NCBI GenBank assembly: GCA_016217965.1
Contig: JACRFI010000015.1
Coordinates: 16,366-80,365, forward strand
Origin: Candidatus Kaiserbacteria bacterium
GTDB lineage: Bacteria; Patescibacteriota; Minisyncoccia; Phycocordibacterales; UBA2100
Length of the DNA: 64,000 nt
Reading direction: 5' to 3'
The notes beneath the pieces were generated by a model. It saw only the letters and a list, made by a program, of their open reading frames with translations, had not been told where the DNA came from and did no database searches. Positions 745 to 63,840 of the stretch are shown piece by piece. A program made the position numbers and the translations under genes. Every line of letters begins with the position of its first letter. Position 1 is the stretch's first letter.

Positions 745-877
745 CCGAATAACCAAATTCCAAGAGACAATAACCAAACAAGTTTCAATAACCAACTTTG
801 AAGTTTGTGATTTGAATATTGTCTGGAGCTTGTGTCTTGGTTATTGGTTATTATTACTGTCATTATGTTACACTCGA
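745..877. repeat. 'AATAACCAA x3 ... TTGGTTATT x2' hairpin element upstream of the MGMT gene
   Basis: Three direct AATAACCAA (747, 768, 786) and two inverted TTGGTTATT (837, 844); shares 15-mer ACAATAACCAAACAA with 29752..29836. Confidence 0.6.
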
Positions 878-7457: not shown

Positions 7458-7482
7458 CCACGAATTCGCGAGCCGCGAAGGC

Positions 7483-7569
7483 TTAAGTATTTTGCCGTCT
7501 TCGCAGGCCTGACGAGGCCGAGACCGAGCGCTGGCGCAGCAGCGCCAGATAGCGACGGCAAAATACTTA
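7483..7569. repeat. ~87-bp palindromic element with 16-bp perfect terminal inverted repeats (copy A)
   Basis: TAAGTATTTTGCCGTC...GACGGCAAAATACTTA termini plus internal palindrome CTGGCGCAGCAGCGCCAG; near-identical inverted copy at 37424..37508. Confidence 0.8.
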
Positions 7570-7612
7570 TGCCGAGAAAAGGCTTGCGAATTTATGCGCT
7601 ATACTACCCACA

Positions 7613-8785
7613 ATGCTGTCGTTCTTTGGGCGAAGCACAAAAGGGAAGCCAGTGGTTATAGCAGATGTCGAGGGCAGCTCGGCAGCTGTTGCTGTTGCGC
7701 TTCTACACGGCGACAAACAGGTGGAGATACTGGTGAGTGAACGGCAGGCAATTCCTAATTCTGGCTCCGACCCTTCTACGGTTTCGGCCTCTATCCCAAC
7801 AGTACTGAAAGAAGTATCCGAGCGGGTCCTTAAAAAATACACTGAGCAAGATGGGATAAAAAAATACGGCGCTCCCAAAGCGGTGCACGCAACACTTGGT
7901 TCTCCATGGGCGCACGCAAGGACGGCGCGGGCAGAAACGTCTTTTCCGGAGGCGCGAAGTATCAGCAAGCAGGCCATCCAAGCCTTGGCTCAAGAAGCGA
8001 TAAAACAGCCCTCCGACCTGCAACAACCGATCCTTGAAACGAACGTCATGCGCGTGCACATCAATGGCTACCCAACAGCAAAACCAGTGGGAAAAAAAGG
8101 AAAAGAACTTGCTGCCACTATTTTCCAAAGCGACGCGGCACAGCAGCCAAAGCAAGCAATTGAATCCGCACTGTCTGCGCAATTTCCGGGAAGGGCCATA
8201 GATGTCCGATCTGGGGTGCGCGCGCTCATGAGTGTCATCAACGAGCGTGCGCACGAGCATAATTATTTTGTTTTGCTCGTTGGGAGTGAATCGACTGAGT
8301 GCATTGCTATCCGGAAGGAGGCAATCGCAGAACATGCGACAGTGCCAGAAGGAATGAATACCATTATCAGGCGCATAGCAGGAGAGAAAGGCCTGCCGGA
8401 AGAAAAGACAACTCTTCTTCGCATGCTGGCCTCTGACACGTGCTCTGCAGAAGAGTGCGAAGTCTTAAAGCAAGGGTTGGCTAAAGCGGAGCCCGACCTC
8501 ACAAAACTCTTCGGGGACGTGTTCGGAAAACTTGCTGCGTTGCGCCGCTTGCCTAACACATGCATTCTTTTTGCACACGCAGACCTCTCGCCGTGGCTTG
8601 AACATTTTTTTAACCGCCTTGATTTTTCTCAATTCACAGTAACGACGCAGCCTTTTGTCGTGCAACCCGTTACCCAGGAACATATGCAAAGTTTCGTTTC
8701 GTGGCAGGCCGGCGTGCGGCAGGATACGGGAATAGGCATCGCTGCGGCATTCGCAAGCCTTGGTATGAAAGGTGATGATTCGTGA
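7613..8785 (+). CDS. hypothetical protein, possibly actin-like (ASKHA) ATPase
   Basis: Weak phosphate-1/2-like segments (VVIADVEGSS, VLLVGSESTECI); 390 aa. Confidence 0.35.
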   Translation: MLSFFGRSTKGKPVVIADVEGSSAAVAVALLHGDKQVEILVSERQAIPNSGSDPSTVSASIPTVLKEVSERVLKKYTEQDGIKKYGAPKAVHATLGSPWAHARTARAETSFPEARSISKQAIQALAQEAIKQPSDLQQPILETNVMRVHINGYPTAKPVGKKGKELAATIFQSDAAQQPKQAIESALSAQFPGRAIDVRSGVRALMSVINERAHEHNYFVLLVGSESTECIAIRKEAIAEHATVPEGMNTIIRRIAGEKGLPEEKTTLLRMLASDTCSAEECEVLKQGLAKAEPDLTKLFGDVFGKLAALRRLPNTCILFAHADLSPWLEHFFNRLDFSQFTVTTQPFVVQPVTQEHMQSFVSWQAGVRQDTGIGIAAAFASLGMKGDDS

Positions 8786-8805: not shown

Positions 8806-10209
8806 TTGCCTGGTATTGCCGTTCATGGTGTATACTTGGCTGAAGTTCTCATGGCAAAAGATTTTTTTGAAGATATTGATGTGCATCCTGAAGCAGGGGG
8901 GGCGCAGAGCAAGCAGCCTTTTTCAGCTGCACCACCCGCCTCTGCCGCGCCTGAGCGCTCGATTCGCAATATCAGTGTCCCTTCTCGTCGCATTCCGGTG
9001 CGTGAGAAACCAATAGATATGAGGCAGGACATGGACATGCCACAACCGCCCCGCCCACGGCGGACACGTTTCGCAATTTGGGTGCTCGCGGCTCTCGCGG
9101 TCCTCCTACTTGGAGGAGCAATCGCATATTTCACATTCTTCAGCAAGACATCAGTCGACGTTACTCCTAGAACTCACCAGGTTACGTTCGATGAGTCAAC
9201 GCAATTTACGGCATATCCTGCAGCGGATGCAGCGAGTGGGACCATAACGTACACCTTGCAGACGACGACCATCGAAGATTCCACAAGCGTAAAAGCCACG
9301 GGCGTGGAGAAAACAGAGGATAGGGCAAGCGGTACCATCACGGTATATAACGAGTACTCGACTTCCCCCGTGCGGCTCATAAAGAACACGCGGTTCCAAA
9401 CGCAAAATGGCCTTGTGTATAGAATCCCAGCGTCCGCCGAAGTGCCTGGAATGAAAGGGGCGCAGCCTGGGCAAGTGACTGTGACAGTGATTGCCGACCA
9501 GCCGGGCACTGAATACAATGTCGGCCCCCAGGATAAATTTACGCTGCCCGGATTAAAGAGCACTCCGCCGATGTATGCGGGAGTGTATGGCCGATCGAGT
9601 GCGGCGATGTCCGGAGGATTCGTTGGCGATAAACCATCTGTCTCAGAGGGCGACCTCGAGAATGCACGCTCTCAGTTGCGCGCACAGCTTCTAGAAAAGG
9701 CGCGTGCAGCAGCGCTTGCATATGCGAGCGGCGGTGCGCTCGTATTTCCTGAACTTGTAAAGATCACGTACGAATCACTTCCTACCGCAGCTGATGGCGC
9801 GGGTGCAGCGAAGGTCACAGAGAGGGCGATTGTCGAAATACCGGTATTTTCTGAGGACAATTTCTCGCAATCCGTAGCGCAGGCGGTAAGTGCTGACGCA
9901 TCAGAAAGCAAAGTACAATTCGTGCCGAATGAGGGATTTGCGGTTTCTCCTGCCGGAGAAGCACAAGTCATAGGAACCGACCCTATCGCGTTCAAAATGA
10001 TTGGAAGCGCGCTCTTGGTGTGGGAGGTCGACGCCAGTGCCTTAAAACAGGCGCTTGTGGGTAGAGACCAGGGAGCGTTTGAGACGGTAATCAGCGGATT
10101 TTCGGGCGTTGAAAAAGCGGAAGCGCATATCGCCCCATTCTGGAAAAAACAATTTCCGCAGGATCCGGATGACATCATGCTTACAATCCTCGAGCCAGTT
10201 GCGCTCTAA
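8806..10209 (+). CDS. hypothetical bitopic membrane protein
   Basis: Pro-rich N-terminal region, single TM ([21 protein letters not shown]), long extracytoplasmic domain; start uncertain. Confidence 0.4.
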
Positions 10210-10268
10210 GAAGGGCGCAAATATTGACTCTTTTGTTAACAACTGTTACTGTACGCGGCGCAGAACAT

Positions 10269-10475
10269 ATGGCGGAACCGGAGATCGCGGAAGGAGTAGT
10301 CGACGAGGCTCTCCCTAATGCTCTCTTTCGCGTGAAGCTTAAGGACGGAGAGGTCGTGCTCGCATACCTCGCCGGCAAAATGCGTCTGCATCGCATAAAA
10401 GTGCTTGTTGGCGACAGGGTCAGTTTGCAGCTGGATCCGTACGGCGGCAGGGCGCGCATAGTGCGAAGGAGTTAG
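10269..10475 (+). CDS. infA: translation initiation factor IF-1
   Basis: S1-like IF-1 sequence ...[36 protein letters not shown]...; internal start chosen within ORF 10224..10475. Confidence 0.85.
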
Positions 10476-10482
10476 AGAAGCC

Positions 10483-10596
10483 ATGCGTGTCAAATCTTCC
10501 CTTAAGAAAATGTGCCTTCATTGCCGCCACGTGAGGCGGCGCGGTAAATTGTGGGTCATTTGCAAGAATCCACGGCATAAGCAGAGGCAGGGGTAG
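10483..10596 (+). CDS. rpmJ: 50S ribosomal protein L36 (37 aa, not in ORF track)
   Basis: Hand translation [37 protein letters not shown], classic L36 with C..C..C..H zinc ribbon; sits between infA and rpsM as expected. Confidence 0.85.
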
Positions 10597-10696
10597 CTTC
10601 TAGTGCTGAGCTTCTAGCTTCTAGGAAACTGGAAACTGGACGCTCCGCAGCAGGAGCATTAATGAATCAAAGCTAGAAGCTAGTACCTAGAAGCTA
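10594..10696 (+). promoter_or_regulatory. two-helix stem-loop bridging rpmJ stop codon and rpsM start codon
   Basis: 10594-10603 TAGCTTCTAG pairs with 10687-10696 CTAGAAGCTA; 10609-10618 AGCTTCTAGC pairs with 10672-10681 GCTAGAAGCT; ~53-nt loop contains GAAACTGGAAACTGGA. Confidence 0.5.
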
Positions 10697-11076
10697 TGAG
10701 AATTGCAGGAATCACAATCCCGGACACAAAGCGCCTTGAAATAGGCCTTACCGCCATTTATGGTGTTGGCCGCCCCCGCGCCCTCTCTACTTTAAAAGGC
10801 CTCGGCATTGATCCAGGTAAGACCGCAAAAGACCTTACACCGCAACTTGAGACTGCACTTCGCGAGCAAATTGAAAAATTTCGCGTCGAGGGAGAACTAC
10901 GGAGAAGCATCTCTGCAAATATTCGTCGCTTGAAGGACATAAAGTCCCATCGCGGCACCAGACACGCAAAGAAGTTGCCAGTGCGGGGCCAGTCAACAAA
11001 GACAAACTCCCGCACAGTGCGTGGCAACGTCCGAAAAACGATGACTTCTGGAAGACGCAAACTTGAAAAGACATAA
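10696..11076 (+). CDS. rpsM: 30S ribosomal protein S13
   Basis: MRIAGITIPDTKRLEIGLTAIYGVG... canonical S13. Confidence 0.9.
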   Translation: MRIAGITIPDTKRLEIGLTAIYGVGRPRALSTLKGLGIDPGKTAKDLTPQLETALREQIEKFRVEGELRRSISANIRRLKDIKSHRGTRHAKKLPVRGQSTKTNSRTVRGNVRKTMTSGRRKLEKT

Positions 11077-11079
11077 ACC

Positions 11080-11514
11080 ATGGGAAAAAAACGAATCATC
11101 CGAAAATCCGGCGGTACGGTCGACCAAGGGCTTAAGTCCCGCTCACTTTCTCGTACAGCAAAGCGCACCATCGCTGCAGGCACGCTTCATATCCATGCAA
11201 CGTACAACAACACGAAGGTGCTTCTTTCCGATAAAGAAGGCAATACGGTGGCGTGGTCTTCATCCGGCGCGCTTGGATTCTCTGGCGCTAAGAAAGGTAC
11301 GCCTTTTGCTGCGGCAAAGGTAGGAGAACTGGTGGGAGAAAAAGCAGCAATGATGGGCGTAAAAGAAGTCGATGTAGTTATCCGGGGGGTCGGTGCGGGC
11401 AGAGAGTCTGCTCTGCGCGCGTTCGCGGGAAAGGGAATCGAAGTTTCAAAGATAGCGGATGATACGCCTGTGCCGCATAATGGCCCTCGGCCGCCGAAGC
11501 CGCGACGAATATAA
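11080..11514 (+). CDS. rpsK: 30S ribosomal protein S11
   Basis: ...HIHATYNNTKVLLSDKEGNTVAWSSSGALGFSGAKKGTPFAAA... canonical S11. Confidence 0.9.
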   Translation: MGKKRIIRKSGGTVDQGLKSRSLSRTAKRTIAAGTLHIHATYNNTKVLLSDKEGNTVAWSSSGALGFSGAKKGTPFAAAKVGELVGEKAAMMGVKEVDVVIRGVGAGRESALRAFAGKGIEVSKIADDTPVPHNGPRPPKPRRI

Positions 11515-13640: not shown

Positions 13641-13994
13641 ATGTCGCAAATTGAACACACAATTGATGCGAGCGGAGAGAGGCTTGGGCGCGTTGCATCG
13701 CGTGCGGCAAAAATTCTAATGGGAAAGTCTTCTGCAGGATACACGCCGCATATTCCCGCGGACCTTACGCTTACGATTTCGAATGCATCGAAAATGCACA
13801 TCGCGCAAAAGAAGCGGTTGCAGAAGACGTACACAGAATATTCTGGGCATCCCGGAGGGTTAAAGCGCGAGTCACTGTCTCATCTCGCAGCGCGAAAGGG
13901 CCACAAAGAGGTGCTACGCCAAGCGATTGAAAGGATGCTTCCGAGAAATGCGATGCGCGCGAAACGATTGAAAAGTTTGAAGATAAGCGATTAG
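13641..13994 (+). CDS. rplM: 50S ribosomal protein L13
   Basis: L13-like ...IDASGERLGRVASRAAKILMGK...; short 117-aa form. Confidence 0.8.
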   Translation: MSQIEHTIDASGERLGRVASRAAKILMGKSSAGYTPHIPADLTLTISNASKMHIAQKKRLQKTYTEYSGHPGGLKRESLSHLAARKGHKEVLRQAIERMLPRNAMRAKRLKSLKISD

Positions 13995-14011
13995 AAGCTA
14001 TAGTCTAGAAT

Positions 14012-14404: not shown

Positions 14405-14602
14405 TTTGGCGAACATTGAGGTTGTGAGGGGGTCGGGGAACGGGAGTTCCCCGTGGAGGAATGCAGCGAGTACGCCAATTTGGCGGACGAGCGTTGAGAA
14501 CCGAGGGTTCTTAAGGAGCGTAGCGACCCGTAGTGGTGCAAGTGCTAATTTTTGCTATTAAAAAAATCGGGGCGCGTGGTCTCTTTTTTTTGTTCGTGAA
14601 AT

Positions 14603-15187
14603 TTGCTATACTCTCGCTGTATGCATGGAACACGCGATGATGAAAAGCGAGTTCCTGAAGAAGGACTCGTGGATGTGGACTACTCCTCCGAAGAAGAATT
14701 CGGAGATGTTGCATCTGCAAAGTCGAAGTTAAAAAACCTCCGCGATGAGCTCGAAGCCGTAAAAAAGGAGAAGCAAGAGTACTTAGACGGCTGGCAGCGA
14801 TGCAAAGCGGACGCGGTGAACCAAAAAAGAGACCTAGAGGCATCGTACGGGCGCGCCGCGAGTGCAGCATCTGCAGATTTGATAGAATCACTTCTTCCTG
14901 CGCTTGATAGTTTCGAGATGGCAATGGGAGGAGTGGGATGGCAAACAGTTGATGCGGCATGGCGAAGGGGGGTAGAGAGCATTTGGAGCCAGCTCCTTGC
15001 TGCGCTTTCCGCGGTTGGTGCCGTTCGCTTTGGAACAACGGGAGAGGCGTATGACCCAATCTTGCATGAGATCCTTCAGGAAGAGGATAGTGATGGAGAG
15101 TCAGGTAGTATTTTGCGCGTTGTGAGGAGTGGGTGGAAGATACAAGGTAAAATTTTACGTCCAGCGCAAGTAATTGTTGCGAAATGA
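14603..15187 (+). CDS. grpE: nucleotide exchange factor GrpE
   Basis: Coiled-coil N-terminus, GrpE core (DLIESLLPALDSFEMA), directly upstream of dnaK. Confidence 0.8.
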   Translation: MLYSRCMHGTRDDEKRVPEEGLVDVDYSSEEEFGDVASAKSKLKNLRDELEAVKKEKQEYLDGWQRCKADAVNQKRDLEASYGRAASAASADLIESLLPALDSFEMAMGGVGWQTVDAAWRRGVESIWSQLLAALSAVGAVRFGTTGEAYDPILHEILQEEDSDGESGSILRVVRSGWKIQGKILRPAQVIVAK

Positions 15188-28904: not shown

Positions 28905-28905
28905 T

Positions 28906-29021
28906 CCCGTTAGAAGTCGTGAGCGCGTCTATCTATCCGCGAATTCTCTGATAGACTTTTATATATGAGCAGTAGCCGAATTTGGCGTAAACCAAGTGTC
29001 TGCGTCCGATTTCTAACGGGA
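28906..29021. repeat. long-range inverted repeat downstream of aspS (10-11-bp arms, ~95-nt spacer)
   Basis: CCCGTTAGAAG at 28907 and CTTCTAACGGG ending 29021 are reverse complements. Confidence 0.45.
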
Positions 29022-32432: not shown

Positions 32433-32517
32433 TTCGCTTCATCGCCGCAGGGTATTTTGACGGAGGAATGGCTCATACCGTCAAAATACCCTGCGGCGAC
32501 TCCGCTATTATTGGAAC

Positions 32518-37397: not shown

Positions 37398-37423
37398 ATC
37401 GCGCGAAACTCCCTCTCGGCATA

Positions 37424-37508
37424 AATTTTTTGCCGTCGCTATCTGGCGCTGCTGCGCCAGCGCTCGGTCTCGGCCCCGTCGGGCCTGCGAAGACGGCAAA
37501 AAACTTAC
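37424..37508. repeat. palindromic TIR element copy B (inverted relative to copy A)
   Basis: Reverse complement matches 7483..7569 with ~2 core mismatches over ~75 bp; immediately downstream of the M23 peptidase gene. Confidence 0.8.
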
Positions 37509-38206
37509 GCCTTCGAAGAGTTTCGTTTTGTCTGAGGCTGATTGAGCCATTCAGTAATTTTTATTGCTTTCAATTCCACAATAGACGCTTTTCGCAAATG
37601 TCTTATGGCCGCAGCTGGCGCGATGTCGTAATACTTTGTCTTCGACAATCTTTCCATAAGCCAATCGAGCGATTGCTCGGTCGTTATCCATTTTTCAGGA
37701 GGGAATCGAGAAAGATCGAATGGCGCTGAGTAGCCGCGGAGGGATTTTCTTCCGTCCCACATGTAATATTCGTGGAAATAGGACATCGCGAGTTCGCGAG
37801 GCGTTTTGTAAACCGCGTCACGATATCTGAGGACCGCGTGATTTGTTTTGCTGATTGCTCCCCATAGGCCGCTTTCTTTAAATAGCGCGACTGCGTGATC
37901 TTCGTCATCATACGCTGTCGCGAAATCCATAAGCAGCGGTTTTTTTCCGTGGTACGCCAGCGCTGCGGCAGCAAATACAGCGCCTTCAAAACAATGCGCC
38001 TTCCCTACTTTTAACACCAAAAGAGGGGAGTGGTTGGTTTCTCCGCCTACCTCAAAATTGATCGGTACAGTGTCCAGAAAATTCTGGATCTTTCGTGGGG
38101 AAGAGAGGCGCGAAAATATTTTATGCATGGCCGGAGGCAACGAGGCGCGTACAGAATCCGCGTACATAGGACAATTATAGCGATTAAAAAAGAGACCGAT
38201 CTGCAA
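37505..38206 (-). CDS. hypothetical protein
   Basis: 233-aa ORF, no confident motif. Confidence 0.4.
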   Translation of the reverse strand: MQIGLFFNRYNCPMYADSVRASLPPAMHKIFSRLSSPRKIQNFLDTVPINFEVGGETNHSPLLVLKVGKAHCFEGAVFAAAALAYHGKKPLLMDFATAYDDEDHAVALFKESGLWGAISKTNHAVLRYRDAVYKTPRELAMSYFHEYYMWDGRKSLRGYSAPFDLSRFPPEKWITTEQSLDWLMERLSKTKYYDIAPAAAIRHLRKASIVELKAIKITEWLNQPQTKRNSSKA

Positions 38207-42291: not shown

Positions 42292-42319
42292 GCAGCTTCA
42301 ATAATAGCTCGGATTTTGG

Positions 42320-42365
42320 CTTTATCTAGAAGCTAAAACTAGTAGCTAGAAGCTATTCAAAAAAT
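42320..42365. promoter_or_regulatory. tandem CTAGAAGCTA motifs upstream of rpmA
   Basis: CTAGAAGCTA at 42326 and AGTAGCTAGAAGCTA at 42341, ending 10 nt before the rpmA ATG. Confidence 0.5.
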
Positions 42366-44391: not shown

Positions 44392-46110
44392 ATGGTAGAA
44401 TTGCGAGAATCATTCATGGGCCTTTTTGCAGAATTAAGCACGATGATTGTGGTCGCTGCCCTGATGGCAACCATCATGCGGCTCCTCAAGCAGCCCTTAA
44501 TCATCGGGCACATTCTTACCGGTCTCATCGTGGGGCCGTTCGTTCTTGATGTTGTCCGCTCTACTGAAACACTTGCGCTTCTCGGGGAAGTTGGCGTAGC
44601 GATACTCCTCTTTACGGTTGGGCTTCATCTTTCGCCCGCTATTGTCCGCCAATTCGGCAGAGTCTCCATCATTACCGCAATTGGGCAGGTGTTTGTCGCA
44701 TCTGTCGCGGGCTATGCGATTGGCATTTGGTTCGGCTTTTCACCGCTTGCGGCGTTTTATATTTCCGTATCGCTCGCGTTCTCAAGCACCATCATAGTCC
44801 TTAAATTTATCTCCGACAAAGGAGACTTGGAGGTCCTGTATGCGAAGATCGCGATAGGATTTCTCCTGGTCCAAGACCTCATTGCGGTACTTCTTCTCAT
44901 CGCTATTCCTATCTTCTCTGCGACCGATACATCGATCTCGCGCGTACTGTACCTTCTTGCCGCAGCCGCGGGGCTGGTACTGTTCGTCTATCTTGCCTCG
45001 AGACTTTTGGTATCAAGGACTTCTTCATTCCTTTCGGAATCCCAGGAATTTCTCTTCCTTTTTTCTATCACGTGGGGTATTGGTGTTGCGGCACTATTTC
45101 AAAGATTCGGGTTCTCATTGGAAAGCGGAGCACTGATAGCAGGCATCGCCCTATCCACCCTTCCGTCTCGGCTTGAGATAAGCGCCCGTCTCACGCCGCT
45201 TCGCGATTTCTTTATCATCATCTTTTTTATATACCTCGGCTCCCAACTGCATCTTGCAGATATCGTCGATCTTTTGCCGCTCGCGTTCCTACTCTCTACC
45301 TTTGTTCTCATAAGCAACCCACTCATCGTGATGGCTCTCCTTGGGTACCTTGGCTACAAGAAGAAAACGGGCCTCCAGACGGGGCTCACCGTGGCTCAGA
45401 TAAGCGAATTTTCGTTGATACTCGTGGCACTTGGCGCTCAGCTTGGGCACGTAGACAACCGTGTCCTCTCGCTCGTAACGCTGGTCGGTATCATTACGAT
45501 ATTTGGCTCCACGTATCTTGTGCAATACTCCGGTGCCATTTATAGAATACTCTCTCCGTATTTGAATATATTTGAACGTGCGCACATCAGCGAACCGCGT
45601 CGGCTGAAGAACTCGGCGGAAATGATTCTTTTTGGGTGCAATCGCATTGGATATGATTTTCTGGACGCGCTGAAAAAGTTGGACCGCTCGCTCTTGGTCG
45701 TGGACTACGACCCTGATGCTGTTGCTGATATGGAGAAAAAAGGCATCGAGAGCGAGTTCGGCGATGCAGGTGATATTTCTTTTCTGGAGTCGCTCGATTT
45801 CTCGAAGGCGCAGTTGGTCGTGTCCACTATTCCCGATCCAGAGACAAACGCGCTCATTCATCGCGTGGTCGGTGCGCAGAACCCTGAGGCAGTGGTGATG
45901 GTTGTCGCCCACAAAATACACGAAGCCCTTTCTCACTATGGCGAGGGAGTTGATTACGTGATCCTCCCCCACTTCCTCGGAGCGAAGCACGCTGCGGAAT
46001 TAGTGCTCAAATTTAGAGACAACAAAAAGAAGTACGAGGAATTGCGCGAGGAGCATATAGAACATCTTCAATTGCGTGTTTCTATCGGGCATGAGCATCC
46101 GCATGCATAG
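44392..46110 (+). CDS. monovalent cation:proton antiporter-2 (Kef-type) with C-terminal RCK/TrkA-N domain
   Basis: 12-13 TM helices then Rossmann segment ILFGCNRIGYDFLDAL...VVDYD. Confidence 0.75.
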   Translation: MVELRESFMGLFAELSTMIVVAALMATIMRLLKQPLIIGHILTGLIVGPFVLDVVRSTETLALLGEVGVAILLFTVGLHLSPAIVRQFGRVSIITAIGQVFVASVAGYAIGIWFGFSPLAAFYISVSLAFSSTIIVLKFISDKGDLEVLYAKIAIGFLLVQDLIAVLLLIAIPIFSATDTSISRVLYLLAAAAGLVLFVYLASRLLVSRTSSFLSESQEFLFLFSITWGIGVAALFQRFGFSLESGALIAGIALSTLPSRLEISARLTPLRDFFIIIFFIYLGSQLHLADIVDLLPLAFLLSTFVLISNPLIVMALLGYLGYKKKTGLQTGLTVAQISEFSLILVALGAQLGHVDNRVLSLVTLVGIITIFGSTYLVQYSGAIYRILSPYLNIFERAHISEPRRLKNSAEMILFGCNRIGYDFLDALKKLDRSLLVVDYDPDAVADMEKKGIESEFGDAGDISFLESLDFSKAQLVVSTIPDPETNALIHRVVGAQNPEAVVMVVAHKIHEALSHYGEGVDYVILPHFLGAKHAAELVLKFRDNKKKYEELREEHIEHLQLRVSIGHEHPHA

Positions 46111-46148
46111 CTTGTAGGTTGTAGCTCGTAGCTGATAGGATATGGCGC

Positions 46149-54752: not shown

Positions 54753-55008
54753 TCACAACACTAAACTACTAGCCAAAATCGAAAAGCAAGTTCAATTATC
54801 CCCTCCCTGTAGAACTTCCAACGCTTTAATCTTCTTAGGATCACTCGCTATTATTTTGGCGAGAGATTTTAATTCCTCGTGAGACAACTCTGCAATCTGG
54901 TGCAACATTCTTTCCGCTTCTGTCAGTTTATCATTCATATTTGCAATGATACCACAACCTTGCATGCGCAGCGGAAAGGCTATTGCACCTGAAGATATTT
55001 GATATACA

Positions 55009-56265
55009 GTGAACGCGATGAAAGGAACGGTTTTGATAATTGGAGCGGGAGGGGTGGGACACGTGACGGCGCATAAGTGTGCGAGAAATAAAAACGTGTT
55101 TAAGAAAATTCATCTCGCTAGCCGAACAATCGGTAAGCCGAACGCGATAAAAAAGGATGTAAAAAAGCGCTGGGGCGTGAATATATCGACCCACGTCGTT
55201 GATGCGGACAAAGCAAGAGATGTCGCAGCACTCATCCGCAAGACGCAGCCGGAGGTAGTTATCAACGTCGCACTTCCCTACCAAGACCTAGCCATCATGG
55301 ACGCGTGTCTTGCAACGAAAGTCCATTATATCGATACCGCGAACTATGAGCCAAAAGATGAGGCGCATTTCGAATACAGCTGGCAGTGGGCATACCAAAA
55401 ACGCTATAAGGATGCGGGTATCATGGCGGTCCTCGGCGCAGGCTTCGACCCGGGAGTTACGAACGCCTACATCGCGTATCTCGCAAAGAAATATTTCGAC
55501 AAGATAAAATACGTAGATATCCTTGATGCGAATGCAGGAAGCCACGGCAAGTCATTTGCGACGAATTTCAATCCTGAAATAAATATCCGCGAGGTCACGC
55601 AGGAAGTGAAGCACTGGAACAAGGGCAAGTGGGTCAAAACGCCGCCCATCATGGACCCTAAGAGCGTACATTTTAAATTCAACTATCCTATCGCAGGCCC
55701 TTGGGAAAGTTACATGCTATATCACGAGGAAATGGAATCGCTCGTCAAGCACTTCCCCTCTGTCGAGCGGATGCGCTTCTGGATGACGTTCGGTGAGAAT
55801 TACCTTACGCATCTTCGAGTAATGGAAAGTATCGGCATTTCTCGCATCGACCCAGTTATGCATGATGGAAAGAAAATAATCCCGATTCAATTCTTGAAAT
55901 CACTTCTTCCCGACCCTGCATCTCTCGCGACTGGCTACAGCGGAAAAGCGGTCATTGGATGCATCGTGACTGGCGTTCCAAAAGGCTCGAAGCTTGAAGC
56001 TAGAAGCCAGAAGCTAATTACGAAGTACATCTATAACGTCACCGACCATGCAAAATGCTTCAAAGAGCTGGGTTCACAAGGAATTTCGTATACAGCCGGC
56101 GTTCCGCCGGTGATTGCTGCCATGATGGTCATGAAAGGCATCTGGAAAGGCGCGGGTGTATTCAATGTCGAACAGCTCGATCCCGAACCATTCCTTAGTA
56201 CCCTCGCTAAGAACGGCTTGCCTTTCAAGGTCATCAACTACAAACCGCTTCCAGCAAAGATTTAA
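55009..56265 (+). CDS. carboxy(nor)spermidine dehydrogenase (saccharopine-dehydrogenase family)
   Basis: N-terminal IIGAGGVGHV NAD(P)-binding loop, ~415-aa SDH-like architecture, adjacency to NspC-like gene. Confidence 0.65.
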   Translation: MNAMKGTVLIIGAGGVGHVTAHKCARNKNVFKKIHLASRTIGKPNAIKKDVKKRWGVNISTHVVDADKARDVAALIRKTQPEVVINVALPYQDLAIMDACLATKVHYIDTANYEPKDEAHFEYSWQWAYQKRYKDAGIMAVLGAGFDPGVTNAYIAYLAKKYFDKIKYVDILDANAGSHGKSFATNFNPEINIREVTQEVKHWNKGKWVKTPPIMDPKSVHFKFNYPIAGPWESYMLYHEEMESLVKHFPSVERMRFWMTFGENYLTHLRVMESIGISRIDPVMHDGKKIIPIQFLKSLLPDPASLATGYSGKAVIGCIVTGVPKGSKLEARSQKLITKYIYNVTDHAKCFKELGSQGISYTAGVPPVIAAMMVMKGIWKGAGVFNVEQLDPEPFLSTLAKNGLPFKVINYKPLPAKI

Positions 56266-63405: not shown

Positions 63406-63840
63406 CTAGAACATCCAGATGGCGATCGTCGCCGCGGCAAACCAGCTGAAGACAGATACTGCTCCGCTCACCATGAGCGACAGCTTTTCGTGCCCCGTAA
63501 GTGCCGCAAACGGTTTCGTGAGTGCCAAGTTCATCAAGCGGCCGATGAGTATCGCATTCACCACCAATATCCCGACGAACAGCAGCTTCACGTCGAACCA
63601 CAGGTTCGTGAGCAGGAAAAGCCGCATCGGGTAGAACAAGTAGGCTCCGCTTACGATGAGCGCAAGAAGGCCAAGCCAGATGAGCGCAAGAAGGCCAAGC
63701 CAGATGAGCGCGTGGTACGTGAGAAGCGTCTTTTTTTCGAGTGTCGTTTTCTTCCCTCGAAGCCAAGCGAACGCATCTTTATCAGCGATCGCAGTCACAC
63801 CCAGAACAAACCCAAATGACAGAATATGAAGTACTAGCAT
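63406..63840 (-). CDS. hypothetical membrane protein containing an in-frame 24-nt tandem duplication
   Basis: 4 TM helices; duplicated LIWLGLLA segment encoded by the repeat at 63657..63712. Confidence 0.4.
   Translation of the reverse strand: MLVLHILSFGFVLGVTAIADKDAFAWLRGKKTTLEKKTLLTYHALIWLGLLALIWLGLLALIVSGAYLFYPMRLFLLTNLWFDVKLLFVGILVVNAILIGRLMNLALTKPFAALTGHEKLSLMVSGAVSVFSWFAAATIAIWMF
63657..63712. repeat. 24-nt perfect tandem repeat (2 full copies plus partial) inside a CDS
   Basis: TGAGCGCAAGAAGGCCAAGCCAGA x2 then TGAGCGCG. Confidence 0.8.

What the first reader, a model, noticed from the sequence alone, without database searches (positions are those of the whole stretch)
10594..10696. 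Two-helix hairpin built from TAGCTTCTAG/CTAGAAGCTA motifs bridges the rpmJ stop and the rpsM start
The rpmJ stop codon TAG (10594-96) is the first triplet of TAGCTTCTAG. Its complement CTAGAAGCTA (10687-96) ends exactly at the A of the rpsM ATG. A second 10-bp helix (10609-18 with 10672-81) stacks inside, and a ~53-nt loop carries the direct repeat GAAACTGGAAACTGGA. A structure that sequesters both a stop and the next start codon is a plausible translational-coupling or autoregulatory element. It is reminiscent of r-protein leader structures.
Basis: seen in the sequence. Interest (0 to 1): 0.55.

Follow-up and report, generated by a model that had tools for sequence, protein, structure and literature searches.

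The report
Heptamer-repeat hairpin between rpmJ and rpsM
The hairpin between the L36 and S13 ribosomal protein genes is real and very stable, but it is one copy of a generic seven-base-repeat palindrome scattered between genes in this bacterial group, not a dedicated ribosomal-protein control element.

Summary
The 97-nt rpmJ-rpsM spacer (10594-10696) folds into a ~26-bp, nearly perfect stem (-51 kcal/mol, z = -5.1). The rpmJ stop UAG and the rpsM AUG sit at its base.

- The organism is a Candidatus Kaiserbacteria (CPR) bacterium.
- Its closest relatives have 9-45-nt spacers here.
- Among 83 related loci, spacers of 60 nt or more are about equally common at four neighbouring junctions.
- The most similar copy of this element (85%) sits at rpsK-rpsD in a sister genome.
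- The same heptamer recurs at four or more other sites in the window.
- No Rfam family matches.

The arms are tandem heptamers, (TAGCTTC)n and (GAAGCTA)n. Seven-base periodicity dominates such spacers in Kaiserbacteria, with different heptamers in different genomes. The same TAGCTTC arrays occur in Acidobacteriota operons. Inverted intergenic heptamer arrays are already described in Xanthomonas.

In this copy only, the rpsM start is strongly sequestered (about 12 kcal/mol to open, against 3-5 for neighbouring genes). A ribosome stopping at rpmJ is predicted to lower this to about 4. Obligate translational coupling is therefore a plausible local consequence, but it is not conserved in the family.

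Verdict: new member of a known kind, with modest interest.

The parts
10483..10596 (+). rpmJ (ribosomal protein L36, 37 aa). Its stop codon TAG (10594-96) is the first triplet of the repeat element.
   Evidence: ORF list and translation. L36 homologues found by tblastn in 78 of 80 related loci.
10594..10696 (+). Whole palindromic heptamer-repeat element. It fills the spacer exactly, from the rpmJ stop to the A of the rpsM ATG.
   Evidence: Fold of -51 kcal/mol, z = -5.1. Inverted repeat I6. Homologous copies in L028, L056, L077, L002 and L070.
10594..10624 (+). Left arm (segment 1): tandem heptamers, TAGCTTC TAG-tgctg-AGCTTC TAGCTTC TAG. It contains the 17-mer GAGCTTCTAGCTTCTAG (10608-10624), which is invariant in all six family members.
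   Evidence: Tandem Repeats Finder: period 7, 4.4 copies. Invariant columns in alignment A2.
10624..10640 (+). Internal (GGAAACT)2.4 repeat (segment 2), a degenerate purine-rich complement of the left arm. In the other five family members it reads (GGAAGYT)2 and is the preferred pairing partner of the left arm.
   Evidence: Tandem Repeats Finder. RNAalifold consensus. Constrained folds.
10642..10657 (+). Mini-hairpin GCTCC-GCAGCA-GGAGC in the loop. In the family consensus fold these bases pair with the 5' part of the left arm instead.
   Evidence: MFE structure. Conserved GCTCC...GG(A/G)G(C/T) in A2. Alternative pairing.
10670..10696 (+). Right arm (segment 3): AAGCTAG AAGCTAG TACCTAG AAGCTA. 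It is the Watson-Crick complement of the left arm and abuts the rpsM start codon.
   Evidence: Tandem Repeats Finder: period 7, 3.9 copies. Pairing. 81% of cells paired across the family, with no significant covariation.
10696..11076 (+). rpsM (ribosomal protein S13, 126 aa). Its AUG lies in the last base pairs of the outer helix, and no Shine-Dalgarno (SD) motif or -10 box lies upstream.
   Evidence: ORF list. 100% match to Candidatus Kaiserbacteria S13. Opening energies. SD and -10 scans.
13991..14000 (+). Solo motif TTAGAAGCTA at the rplM/rpsI junction. The rplM stop TAG (13992-94) lies inside it.
42326..42355 (+). (CTAGAAG)-type array, 4.4 units, ending 10 nt upstream of the rpmA (L27) start. 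It has a degenerate complementary segment upstream (42292-42312).
46108..46133 (+). Variant array (TAGNNNN)x3.7, TAGCTTG TAGGTTG TAGCTCG TAGCT, between the Na+/H+ exchanger stop (its first TAG) and cysS. A fifth TAG follows at 46136-38.
55985..56016 (+). (GAAGCTA)-type array inside the carboxyspermidine dehydrogenase gene. It coincides with an 8-residue insertion relative to PDB 8DEB.

Best explanation
The rpmJ-rpsM spacer is occupied by one copy of a dispersed, palindromic repeat element. Its arms are inverted arrays of a tandem heptamer, (TAGCTTC)n and (GAAGCTA)n. It is a lineage-specific insertion into a junction that is normally only 2-45 nt long, not an element that evolved to control this operon.

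The element is transcribed inside the spc/alpha ribosomal-protein mRNA (inferred from operon layout). There it folds into a ~26-bp hairpin that loops out the 97 inserted bases and leaves the rpmJ UAG and the rpsM AUG side by side at the stem base (shown by folding).

This genome hardly uses Shine-Dalgarno (SD) sites, and internal cistrons normally sit within 20 nt of the preceding stop. The likely consequence, which is inferred, is as follows:
- De novo initiation at rpsM is blocked.
- S13 synthesis becomes dependent on ribosomes finishing L36.
- A terminating ribosome melts the outer helix, frees the AUG region and can reinitiate.

The tandem arrays most likely arise and are kept by replication slippage of 7-nt units. 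Hairpin-templated copying or transposition may also contribute. All of this is inferred and the mechanism of spread was not resolved.
For: Repeat nature:
- The 10-mer occurs 6 times against 0.04 expected, and arrays lie at 13991, 42326, 46108 and 55985.
- Both arms have period 7.

Insertion:
- Relatives with S13 87-90% identical have spacers of 9, 11, 12, 44 and 45 nt.

Not junction-specific:
- Spacers of 60 nt or more occur 21, 20, 33 and 16 times at infA-rpmJ, rpmJ-rpsM, rpsM-rpsK and rpsK-rpsD among about 82 loci.
- Homologous copies lie at rpsK-rpsD in L002 and L070.
- The window copy is closest to the L002 copy: 85% overall and 87% in the internal part, against 74-76% to same-junction copies.
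- L045 has four copies of its own element in four consecutive spacers.

Class property:
- Lag 7 or 14 is the best periodicity in the arms of 42 of 88 long spacers. Mean autocorrelation at lag 7 is 0.377 against about 0.26 at other lags.

Hairpin and coupling:
- MFE is -51 kcal/mol, z = -5.1.
- Opening the rpsM start region costs 12.1-12.6 kcal/mol. This falls to 4.1-4.5 with a ribosome on the stop covering 9-12 nt beyond it; with 15 nt covered it falls only to 7.9.
- SD-like motifs precede only 7 of 65 genes, and 25 of 48 co-directional gene pairs are 20 nt or less apart.
- The elements supply neither a -10 box (4 of 89) nor an SD (3 of 89) to the downstream gene.

Known kind:
- Heptameric repeats are over-represented in bacterial intergenic DNA.
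- They form convergent inverted pairs between co-oriented genes in Xanthomonas (PMC4692102).
- Heptamer arrays lie just upstream of start codons, including inside r-protein operons, in Beggiatoaceae (PMC4679880).
Against: - Only one full two-armed copy lies in the 64-kb window, so multi-copy status in this genome rests on partial arrays and on relatives.
- No target-site duplication or transposase could be established. The TA flanks are suggestive only.
- Sequestration of the start is not conserved. Median opening energy is 4.3 kcal/mol for 88 long spacers against 3.8 for short ones, and the window copy is in the top 2%. Coupling may therefore be an accident of this copy.
- Register-shifted re-pairing of the repeats keeps the AUG region partly paired even with a ribosome on the stop. 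Mean unpaired probability stays at about 0.24.
- The 17-mer core is invariant in six copies from genomes whose S13 proteins are only 70-86% identical to the window's.
- In Acidobacteriota the arms are more conserved than 4-fold degenerate sites. Both observations hint at a sequence-level function that a purely selfish or slippage model does not explain.
- There are no expression data.
Confidence: 0.6

Rival explanations
1. The element is a dedicated autoregulatory leader of the alpha operon. A ribosomal protein (S4, S13 or L36) binds the structure and represses rpsM translation, as S4 does on the E. coli rpsM leader pseudoknot.
For: - The position is the same as that of the E. coli alpha-operon S4 site. 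This rests on established knowledge of Rfam RF00140 (Alpha_RBS), not on a test here.
- The start codon is sequestered.
- rpsD lies in the same operon.
Against: - No Rfam match, even at E up to 10, in 10400-10800 or at gathering score in the whole window.
- The structure is absent from orthologous spacers of the closest relatives and from 58 of 78 related loci.
- Homologous copies lie at rpsK-rpsD.
- The same heptamer occurs upstream of rpmA and cysS and inside a metabolic gene.
- The arms differ completely between genomes, whereas r-protein binding specificity is conserved.
Confidence: 0.03
2. The element is an RNase III processing or mRNA-stability element. The ~26-bp duplex is cut by RNase III, or blocks 3' exonucleases. 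This separates the spc-type transcript (ending in infA-rpmJ) from the alpha-type transcript (rpsM-rpsK-rpsD-rpoA) and sets their relative stabilities.
For: - The near-perfect duplex of 15 + 11 bp exceeds the ~20 bp that RNase III needs (established knowledge).
- Similar hairpins fill many intercistronic spacers in Kaiserbacteria. In 17 of 88, one outer helix bridges stop and start.
- Correia/NEMIS and ERIC elements are precedents for co-transcribed palindromic repeats that are processed (own knowledge).
Against: - dsRNA-specific processing would tolerate covariation. Yet the arms are conserved in sequence, and mismatches recur at the variable position of each heptamer.
- Across 88 long spacers the sense strand is not more stable than the antisense strand: 46 against 41, p = 0.88.
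- No rnc gene was seen in the window by a signature search. This is uninformative for a 64-kb piece.
- There are no RNA-end data.
Confidence: 0.12
3. The element is a binding platform for a sequence-specific factor that reads a motif repeated every 7 nt, such as CUAG/UAG in RNA or CTAG/AGCT in DNA. This would place rpsM, rpsI, rpmA and other array-bearing genes in one post-transcriptional or transcriptional regulon.
For: - (C)TAGAAGC motifs lie 0-12 nt upstream of the starts of rpsM, rpsI, rpmA and a recombinase gene.
- The 17-mer core is invariant in six diverged copies.
- In Terriglobia rpsH-rplF orthologues the arms are 0.9-1.0 identical, including the order of variant units. Their 4-fold degenerate sites are 0.59-0.72 identical and their loops 0.3-0.8.
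- A similar proposal was made for TAACTGA repeats (PMC4679880).
- UAG-N4 spacing resembles HutP sites (own knowledge).
Against: - Related Kaiserbacteria use entirely different heptamers in the same architecture, including GTATCAA, TTTTCAA, TAGCCAC and CGAAATC. No single conserved factor can be responsible.
- No candidate binding protein was identified.
- No terminator follows the array, as a HutP-type antiterminator would need.
- One array lies inside a coding sequence.
Confidence: 0.1
4. The element is a purely selfish or neutral DNA palindrome with no RNA-level consequence. Translating ribosomes and helicases melt the hairpin, and S13 is made normally.
For: - The elements appear and disappear freely across the tree.
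- They occur in either folding orientation.
- In general they leave the downstream start accessible: median opening energy 4.3 against 3.8 kcal/mol.
- A stop-hairpin-start geometry is the trivial result of inserting a palindrome into a 2-20-nt spacer.
Against: - In this copy the start region costs about 12 kcal/mol to open. That is top 2% of long spacers and top 0.6% of all junctions.
- This is hard to ignore for an essential, highly expressed gene in an organism without SD-assisted initiation.
Confidence: 0.15

Closest known systems
Inverted pairs of intergenic heptameric simple-sequence repeats: Xanthomonas GGGAATC and Nostoc GGGGAYT arrays (Rehm et al. 2015, PMC4692102), and the heptamer-rich 'long SSRs' of Mrazek et al. 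2007 as cited there and in PMC4679880
   Same: - Tandem 7-nt units.
- Two arrays in convergent orientation close together, able to form a stem-loop.
- Mostly intergenic, between co-oriented genes.
- Many sites per genome.
- Length and sequence vary between relatives while the site and type can persist.
- Transcribed.
   Different: - The heptamer is different (TAGCTTC, not G-rich, no quadruplex potential).
- The host is a CPR bacterium.
- The element fills an intercistronic spacer of a ribosomal-protein operon exactly from stop to start.
- It has a conserved internal segment (GGAAGYT)2-GCTCC-N6-GGAGC shared by copies at different junctions, which is more MITE-like than SSR-like.
TAACTGA heptamer direct repeats of marine Beggiatoaceae, Cyanobacteria and Bacteroidetes (MacGregor 2015, PMC4679880)
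   Same: - Heptamer arrays lie within a few nucleotides upstream of start codons.
- They occur in genomes and at genes that lack SD sites.
- Some lie at positions internal to ribosomal-protein operons.
- The same heptamer appears in unrelated phyla.
- The unit contains stop codons.
   Different: - Those are almost all direct repeats in one orientation: 169 direct sets against one indirect.
- Here two inverted arrays form a long hairpin.
Co-transcribed palindromic intergenic repeats: REP/BIME, ERIC/IRU and Neisseria Correia (NEMIS) elements (own knowledge; general classes reviewed in PMC3184786 and PMC3733652, abstracts only seen)
   Same: - About 100-nt imperfect palindromes dispersed in intergenic and intercistronic DNA.
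- They fold in mRNA and can affect stability, processing or translation of neighbouring cistrons.
- They are genome- or clade-specific in sequence.
   Different: - The arms are built from tandem heptamers rather than a unique terminal inverted repeat.
- There is no GTAG or CGTC tag.
- No transposase (RAYT or IS) partner was identified.
- No clear target-site duplication was found.
E. coli alpha-operon S4-binding leader (Rfam RF00140 Alpha_RBS) and other r-protein leaders
   Same: - It occupies the same genomic position, immediately upstream of and overlapping the rpsM start.
- The structure occludes the initiation site.
   Different: - There is no sequence or structure match.
- It is not conserved in orthologous spacers.
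- It is present at unrelated junctions and genes.
Mycobacterial MIRUs in intercistronic regions (own knowledge)
   Same: These are repeat units that sit between genes of an operon with their ends overlapping the flanking stop and start codons, so translational coupling is kept.
   Different: MIRUs are 40-100-bp direct tandem units that encode small ORFs. They are not heptamer palindromes.

Membership tests
Ribosomal-protein autoregulatory leader (e.g. Alpha_RBS RF00140) | Match to a curated covariance model | tested here: not met
   No Rfam hit at gathering score in the window. No relevant hit at E up to 10 in 10400-10800.
Ribosomal-protein autoregulatory leader (e.g. Alpha_RBS RF00140) | Conserved at the orthologous position in related genomes | tested here: not met
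   Closest relatives have 9-45-nt spacers. 58 of 78 loci have spacers of 48 nt or less.
Ribosomal-protein autoregulatory leader (e.g. Alpha_RBS RF00140) | Specific to the regulated operon | tested here: not met
   Homologous copies lie at rpsK-rpsD. The same heptamer arrays lie at rpmA, cysS, rplM/rpsI and inside a carboxyspermidine dehydrogenase gene.
Ribosomal-protein autoregulatory leader (e.g. Alpha_RBS RF00140) | Bound by the cognate r-protein / mimics its rRNA site | not testable with these tools
   Needs binding assays. The 16S rRNA of this organism is not in the window.
Inverted intergenic heptameric SSR pair (Xanthomonas type) | Head-to-tail repeats of a 7-nt unit | tested here: met
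   Tandem Repeats Finder gives period 7 with 4.4 and 3.9 copies. Lag-7 identity in the arms is 0.55.
Inverted intergenic heptameric SSR pair (Xanthomonas type) | Two arrays in convergent orientation close together, able to pair | tested here: met
   Arms 10594-10620 and 10670-10696, 49 nt apart. MFE -51 kcal/mol.
Inverted intergenic heptameric SSR pair (Xanthomonas type) | Intergenic, between co-oriented genes, and several sites per genome with the same unit | tested here: met
   The element lies between rpmJ and rpsM on the same strand. Further arrays lie at 13991, 42326, 46108 and 55985.
Inverted intergenic heptameric SSR pair (Xanthomonas type) | Unit number varies between relatives | tested here: met
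   L028 has one more left-arm unit than the other five copies, and the right arm is degenerate in L056.
MITE (non-autonomous transposon) | Terminal inverted repeats | tested here: met
   TAGCTTCTAG ... CTAGAAGCTA at the extreme ends.
MITE (non-autonomous transposon) | Target-site duplication, with filled versus empty sites | tested here: inconclusive
   TA flanks both ends. The relatives lacking the element are too diverged (S13 88-90% identical) to define an empty site. DNA of the 98% relative could not be fetched.
MITE (non-autonomous transposon) | Several near-identical full-length copies per genome | tested here: inconclusive
   There is one full copy in this 64-kb window. Copies at two junction types occur across genomes, and a different family has four copies in L045.
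MITE (non-autonomous transposon) | Cognate transposase with matching ends | not tested
   No systematic annotation of the window for transposases was done.
REP / REPIN | 20-40-nt imperfect palindrome with a GTAG or CGTC tag, plus a RAYT gene | tested here: not met
   The sequence shows CTAG/AGCT-containing heptamer arrays and no terminal GTAG or CGTC tag. The RAYT gene was not searched for.
RNase III substrate | About 20 bp or more of near-continuous dsRNA | tested here: met
   15 + 11 bp with one 1x1 mismatch.
RNase III substrate | Cleavage in vivo | not testable with these tools
   Needs RNA-end mapping.
HutP-type antiterminator site | Three UAG spaced by 4 nt, upstream of or overlapping a terminator | tested here: not met
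   UAG-N4 spacing is present. No terminator-like site lies on the + strand in 10000-11200, and other genomes use heptamers without UAG.

The most novel reading that the evidence does not exclude
In SD-poor, leaderless-rich CPR bacteria, 'stop-hairpin-start' elements such as this one may be selected devices rather than junk. The hairpin would loop out the insert so that a ribosome terminating at the 5' base can reinitiate at the AUG on the 3' base, a bacterial analogue of ribosome shunting.

Alternatively, or in addition, the heptamer arms may be read by a 7-nt-periodic nucleic-acid-binding factor. That would explain two observations:
- The TAGCTTC arms are held invariant at ribosomal-protein, nuo and atp operon junctions of Acidobacteriota while neighbouring synonymous sites and loops diverge.
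- The same heptamer recurs in an unrelated phylum.
Probability: 0.1. Interest if true: 0.75.

Novelty: new member of a known kind. Interest (0 to 1): 0.35.

Why it matters
For this locus the practical point is negative. The hairpin should not be annotated as a ribosomal-protein leader.

More broadly, Kaiserbacteria have about 1-Mb genomes that are assumed to be streamlined. Yet they carry several families of structured palindromic repeats inside their most highly expressed operons. These repeats are often built from 7-nt units and often fill the spacer exactly from stop to start.

The organism appears to initiate translation without SD sites, using leaderless first genes and tightly coupled internal genes. 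Such insertions are therefore natural experiments on how reinitiation copes with distance and structure.

The strong conservation of the same heptamer arms in Acidobacteriota r-protein operons suggests that at least some heptamer arrays are functional. The function of bacterial heptamer repeats has been an open question since they were first noticed as over-represented.

Tried and rejected
1. Known RNA family. Rfam searches of the window, of the 400-nt region at E up to 10, of 20 Acidobacteriota loci and of 12 Kaiserbacteria loci found only tRNAs.
2. Promoter or terminator in the element. There is no sigma-70-like site in the spacer and no + strand terminator.
3. Elements as mobile promoters for leaderless transcripts. 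Only 4 of 89 long spacers have a -10 box at the leaderless distance, which is background level.
4. Elements supplying an SD. Only 3 of 89 do so.
5. RNA-level selection seen as sense-strand G-U excess. Over 88 elements the split was 46 against 41, p = 0.88. The TAGCTTC family is sense-favoured in 6 of 6 copies, but these copies are homologous.
6. Covariation. With six sequences, neither the arm1:arm3 helix nor the consensus arm1:segment2 helix exceeds the shuffle controls.
7. Three-frame stop cassette (UAG every 7 nt). This holds for the TAGCTTC heptamer but not for several other heptamer families seen by inspection, so it is not a class property.
8. HutP-like or TIGR-array readings. There is no terminator, and the units and layout do not fit (PMC12045711 abstract).
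9. Empty-site analysis. The 98%-identical relative's DNA was not retrievable, and the 88-90% relatives are too diverged.
10. Exact-sequence literature search for the array found nothing. There were no papers on such repeats in CPR or Acidobacteria. Mrazek 2007 is not held.
11. RNase III signature in the window: none found. This is uninformative for 64 kb.
Full report
**1. The observation**

- rpmJ runs 10483-10596, with its stop TAG at 10594-96. rpsM starts at 10696.
- TAGCTTCTAG (10594-10603) and its complement CTAGAAGCTA (10687-10696) flank the spacer.
- AGCTTCTAGC (10609-18) pairs with GCTAGAAGCT (10672-81).
- GAAACTGGAAACTGGA lies at 10625-40.

- It has 15 bp (10593-10607 with 10683-10697), a 1x1 mismatch, then 11 bp (10609-19 with 10671-81).
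- Two small inner hairpins also form.
- MFE is -51 kcal/mol against -33.7 +/- 3.4 for shuffles (z = -5.1; 0 of 200 shuffles fold as well).

The 10-mer occurs 6 times in the window against 0.04 expected. Tandem Repeats Finder shows that both arms, and the loop repeat, are period-7 tandem arrays.

**2. Organism and surroundings**

S13 is identical to a protein of Candidatus Kaiserbacteria (Parcubacteria/CPR). The gene order is infA-rpmJ-rpsM-rpsK-rpsD-rpoA-rplQ-rplM-rpsI.

The genome appears to initiate translation without Shine-Dalgarno (SD) sites.
- An SD-like 4-mer precedes 7 of 65 genes, against 4 of 65 at control positions.
- 17 of 66 genes have a -10-like box ending 4-10 nt before the ATG, against 4% of random positions. 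This suggests leaderless transcripts.
- 25 of 48 co-directional neighbours are 20 nt or less apart.
- In related genomes the 20 nt before internal r-protein cistrons are A/U-rich with 12-13% G.

**3. It is a generic repeat, not an rpmJ-rpsM device**

(a) The same heptamer array recurs at several sites in the window.
- At 13991-14000, where the rplM stop lies inside it.
- At 42326-42355, ending 10 nt before rpmA.
- At 46108-46133, a variant between an exchanger gene's stop and cysS.
- At 55985-56016, inside carboxyspermidine dehydrogenase, where it coincides with an 8-residue insertion relative to PDB 8DEB.

(b) The closest relatives lack the element. Spacers are 12 nt (L081, S13 88% identical), 45 nt (L084), 11 nt (L205, 90%), 9 nt (L206, 90%) and 44 nt (L207).

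(c) The rpmJ-rpsM spacer could be measured in 78 of 80 species-level relatives.
- It is 2-48 nt in 58 of them, and at most 37 nt in 56.
- It is 74-230 nt in 20.
- The long ones are nearly all inverted pairs of short tandem repeats, but with different units. Examples are GTATCAA, TTTTCAA, ATGTTGN, TAGCCAC, CGAATAC and CGAAATC.

(d) The junction is not special. Spacers of 60 nt or more occur 21, 20, 33 and 16 times at infA-rpmJ, rpmJ-rpsM, rpsM-rpsK and rpsK-rpsD.

(e) Six homologous TAGCTTC elements exist.
- Four are at rpmJ-rpsM (window, L028, L056, L077) and two at rpsK-rpsD (L002, L070).
- The window copy is most similar to the L002 copy at the other junction (85%, against 74-76% to same-junction copies). 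L077 is most similar to L070.
- In a crude S13+S11+S4 tree, L002 and the window genome are neighbours, and carriers are scattered.
- Copies therefore group by host, not by junction.

(f) Other findings show that palindromic repeats are common in these genomes.
- L045 carries four copies of its own TAGCCAC element in four consecutive spacers. Each fills the gap from stop to ATG.
- The window holds other palindromic repeats: 7480-7573 and 37404-37525 are the same element in opposite orientation. Others lie at 32443-99, 748-852, 28905-29020 and 54896-54992.

**4. Seven-base periodicity is the class signature**

In the outer 40 nt of 88 long spacers, mean self-identity at lag 7 is 0.377 against about 0.26 at other lags. 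Lag 7 or 14 is best in 42 of 88, against 28 of 340 coding controls.

**5. The same heptamer in another phylum**

A metagenome scan for the invariant 17-mer GAGCTTCTAGCTTCTAG returned 120 loci, and 26 of them have inverted (TAGCNNC)n/(GNNGCTA)n arrays.
- One of the 26 is a Kaiserbacterium. The other 25 have 50-63% G+C. For the four junctions checked by protein look-up (rpsH-rplF, nusG-rplK, rpsM, rplR-rpsE), exact or 90%-cluster matches are named Terracidiphilus, Candidatus Sulfotelmatobacter and Candidatus Acidoferrales, all Acidobacteriota.
- They lie at nusG-rplK, rpsH-rplF, rplR-rpsE, rplC-rplD, after rpsI, before rpsM, at nuoL-nuoM, near atpE and serS, and at other sites.
- No Rfam family covers them.

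In four rpsH-rplF orthologues the pattern of conservation is uneven.
- The left arm is 100% identical over 35 nt, of which only 17 were fixed by the search.
- The unsearched right arm is 0.71-0.97 identical.
- 4-fold degenerate sites of rplF are 0.59-0.72 identical and the loops 0.29-0.80.
- The arms are therefore constrained or driven there.

The apparent enrichment at r-protein junctions is confounded. A few IMG/VR contigs with 57-67% G+C carry the arrays too.

**6. Structure within the family**

- It returns a 27-bp hairpin between the left array and the internal segment (GGAAGYU)2-GCUCC-N-GGAGC.
- 91% of cells are paired, many as G-U pairs, and three pairs show double changes.

The arm1:arm3 helix is 81% paired. 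Neither helix beats the shuffle controls with six sequences.

Constrained folding shows that arm1:segment2 alone is worth -31 to -36 kcal/mol in every copy, and in L056, L077, L002 and L070 it is the arm-1 pairing of the MFE fold. L028's MFE is a composite in which its extra outer heptamers pair with arm 3. Only in the window, where segment 2 has mutated to GGAAACU, does arm1:arm3 fully win (-49.4 against -34.4).

All six copies fold better in the sense strand. Over all 88 long spacers, however, sense and antisense are equal (46 against 41, p = 0.88). This argues against general selection for an mRNA structure.

**7. Consequence for rpsM**

Opening positions -12..+5 of rpsM costs 12.1-12.6 kcal/mol. 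The same measure is 2.7-5.0 for rpmJ, rpsK, rpoA, rpsI and rpmA.

With a ribosome footprint on the rpmJ stop covering 9-12 nt beyond it, the cost falls to 4.1-4.5. With 15 nt covered it falls only to 7.9. Register-shifted re-pairing of the repeats keeps the site partly paired.

This is not a class property.
- Median opening energy is 4.3 for 88 long spacers and 3.8 for 229 short ones.
- The six family members range from 3.6 to 12.6.
- The window copy is in the top 2% of long spacers.

17 of 88 long spacers have a single outer helix that bridges stop and start. This is the geometry expected when a palindrome lands in a 2-20-nt spacer. The elements provide neither -10 boxes (4 of 89) nor SD motifs (3 of 89).

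**8. Interpretation**

- *Shown:* a real, very stable hairpin; a repeat element; an insertion; not junction-specific; heptamer periodicity; no Rfam family.
- *Inferred:* the element is co-transcribed; rpsM initiation is blocked in the free mRNA and rescued by ribosomes terminating at rpmJ (obligate coupling); the arrays arise by slippage of 7-nt units.
- *Not resolved:* how copies move; whether the arms are bound by a factor; whether RNase III cuts the stem.

**9. Comparison with the literature**

- Heptameric repeats are the most over-represented long SSRs in many bacteria. Polymerase slippage on a ~7-nt footprint has been proposed as the cause (Mrazek 2007, as summarised in PMC4679880 and PMC4692102).
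- In Xanthomonas, GGGAATC arrays are 89-93% intergenic and mostly lie between co-oriented genes. In 70-75 cases per genome they form convergent inverted pairs that could make stem-loops. The type of repeat is preserved between species, and most are transcribed (PMC4692102).
- In Beggiatoaceae, TAACTGA arrays sit within a few nucleotides of start codons that lack SD sites, including positions internal to r-protein operons. They are shared with unrelated phyla, and a translational role was proposed (PMC4679880).

The present element is therefore a new member of a known kind, in two phyla (CPR and Acidobacteriota) for which I found no description.

**10. Verdict**

- The 'r-protein leader' reading is rejected.
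- The 'translational coupling' reading is kept as a plausible local consequence.
- Interest is modest (0.35).
- A minority reading deserves follow-up: selected stop-hairpin-start reinitiation devices, or a 7-nt-periodic binding factor. The reasons are the conserved arms in Acidobacteriota and the SD-less biology of the host.

Noticed in passing
window, whole (examples 7585-7612, 14593-14620, 38168-38195 on the - strand): The genome looks SD-poor and rich in leaderless transcripts. An SD-like 4-mer precedes 7 of 65 genes, against 4 of 65 at control positions. A TAnnnT box (at least 4 of 6 matches to TATAAT) ends 4-10 nt before the ATG in 17 of 66 genes, against 4% of random positions (for example TTGCGA-N17-TATACT-N7-ATG at 7613). 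25 of 48 co-directional gene pairs are 20 nt or less apart.
   Followed up: partly
window 7480-7573 and 37404-37525 (also 32443-32499): A second palindromic repeat family of about 95 nt has arms GGCTTAAGTATTTTGCCGTC / GACGGCAAAATACTTATGCC. Two copies are present in opposite orientation, in the alaS-downstream spacer and in another spacer. Related arms lie at 32443-99. Folds reach about -0.5 kcal/mol per nt.
   Followed up: partly
window 748-852: Another inverted heptamer-array element with a different unit, (AATAACC/TAACCAA) ... (TTGGTTA)2.3. It folds to -38 kcal/mol.
   Followed up: no
window 55985-56016, inside ORF 55009-56265: A (GAAGCTA)-type array lies inside the carboxyspermidine dehydrogenase gene. 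It coincides with an in-frame 8-residue insertion in the segment SKLEARSQKLIT relative to PDB 8DEB. A heptamer array has been tolerated in a coding sequence.
   Followed up: partly
window 46108-46138: A single-orientation array with UAG every 7 nt, TAGCTTG TAGGTTG TAGCTCG TAGCTGA TAGGAT, fills the gap between the Na+/H+ exchanger gene and cysS. The exchanger's stop is the first TAG. The array places stop codons in all three frames.
   Followed up: no
L005 723-956; L007, L011, L056 and L077 rpsM-rpsK spacers; L058 and L070 infA-rpmJ and rpsM-rpsK spacers; L069 and L079 rpsK-rpsD spacers; L069 rpsM-rpsK spacer: A different 130-230-nt, strongly structured intercistronic element ('family B') recurs at several r-protein junctions in about nine Kaiserbacteria genomes. 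It begins TAA(A/G)G..., carries long perfect hairpins (for example CCCACAAAATCAGTGCATC...; ACCCAGCACC...GGTGCTGGGT) and ends in a conserved tail...CTCG..TAAGAAAA(A/T)CTAACATG. There is no Rfam match.
   Followed up: partly
L045 1116-2590: Four consecutive spacers (infA-rpmJ, rpmJ-rpsM, rpsM-rpsK, rpsK-rpsD) each hold a copy of a ~125-nt TAGCCAC-heptamer palindrome running from stop codon to ATG. Two copies are nearly identical along their full length. All four fold better in the antisense strand.
   Followed up: partly
L098, L105, L106, L127, L131, L142, L146, L156, L158, L162, L175, L182, L191, L192 and others (metagenome contigs): Acidobacteriota (Terriglobia) carry inverted (TAGCNNC)n/(GNNGCTA)n arrays at nusG-rplK, rpsH-rplF, rplR-rpsE, rplC-rplD, rpsI, rpsM, nuoL-nuoM and other junctions. 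At rpsH-rplF the arms are 0.9-1.0 identical, while 4-fold degenerate sites are 0.59-0.72 identical and the loops 0.3-0.8. There is no Rfam family and I found no literature.
   Followed up: partly
L209, L212, L215, L232 (IMG/VR contigs): The same inverted TAGCTTC-type arrays occur on contigs classed as viral, with 57-67% G+C. Whether these are phage genomes, prophage flanks or misclassified host DNA was not examined.
   Followed up: no
L207 2966-3000: A close relative of the window genome (S13 88% identical) has a one-orientation (AATTTTC)n heptamer array, with no inverted partner, in its 44-nt rpmJ-rpsM spacer.
   Followed up: no
window 63655-63711: A perfect 24-nt tandem repeat (GATGAGCGCAAGAAGGCCAAGCCA, 2.4 copies), probably inside an ORF.
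   Followed up: no
window 13985-14011: The rplM/rpsI junction motif TTAGAAGCTA overlaps a promoter-like arrangement, TTGAAG-N16-TATAGT, that ends 7 nt before the rpsI ATG. rpsI may therefore also be made from a leaderless transcript.
   Followed up: no
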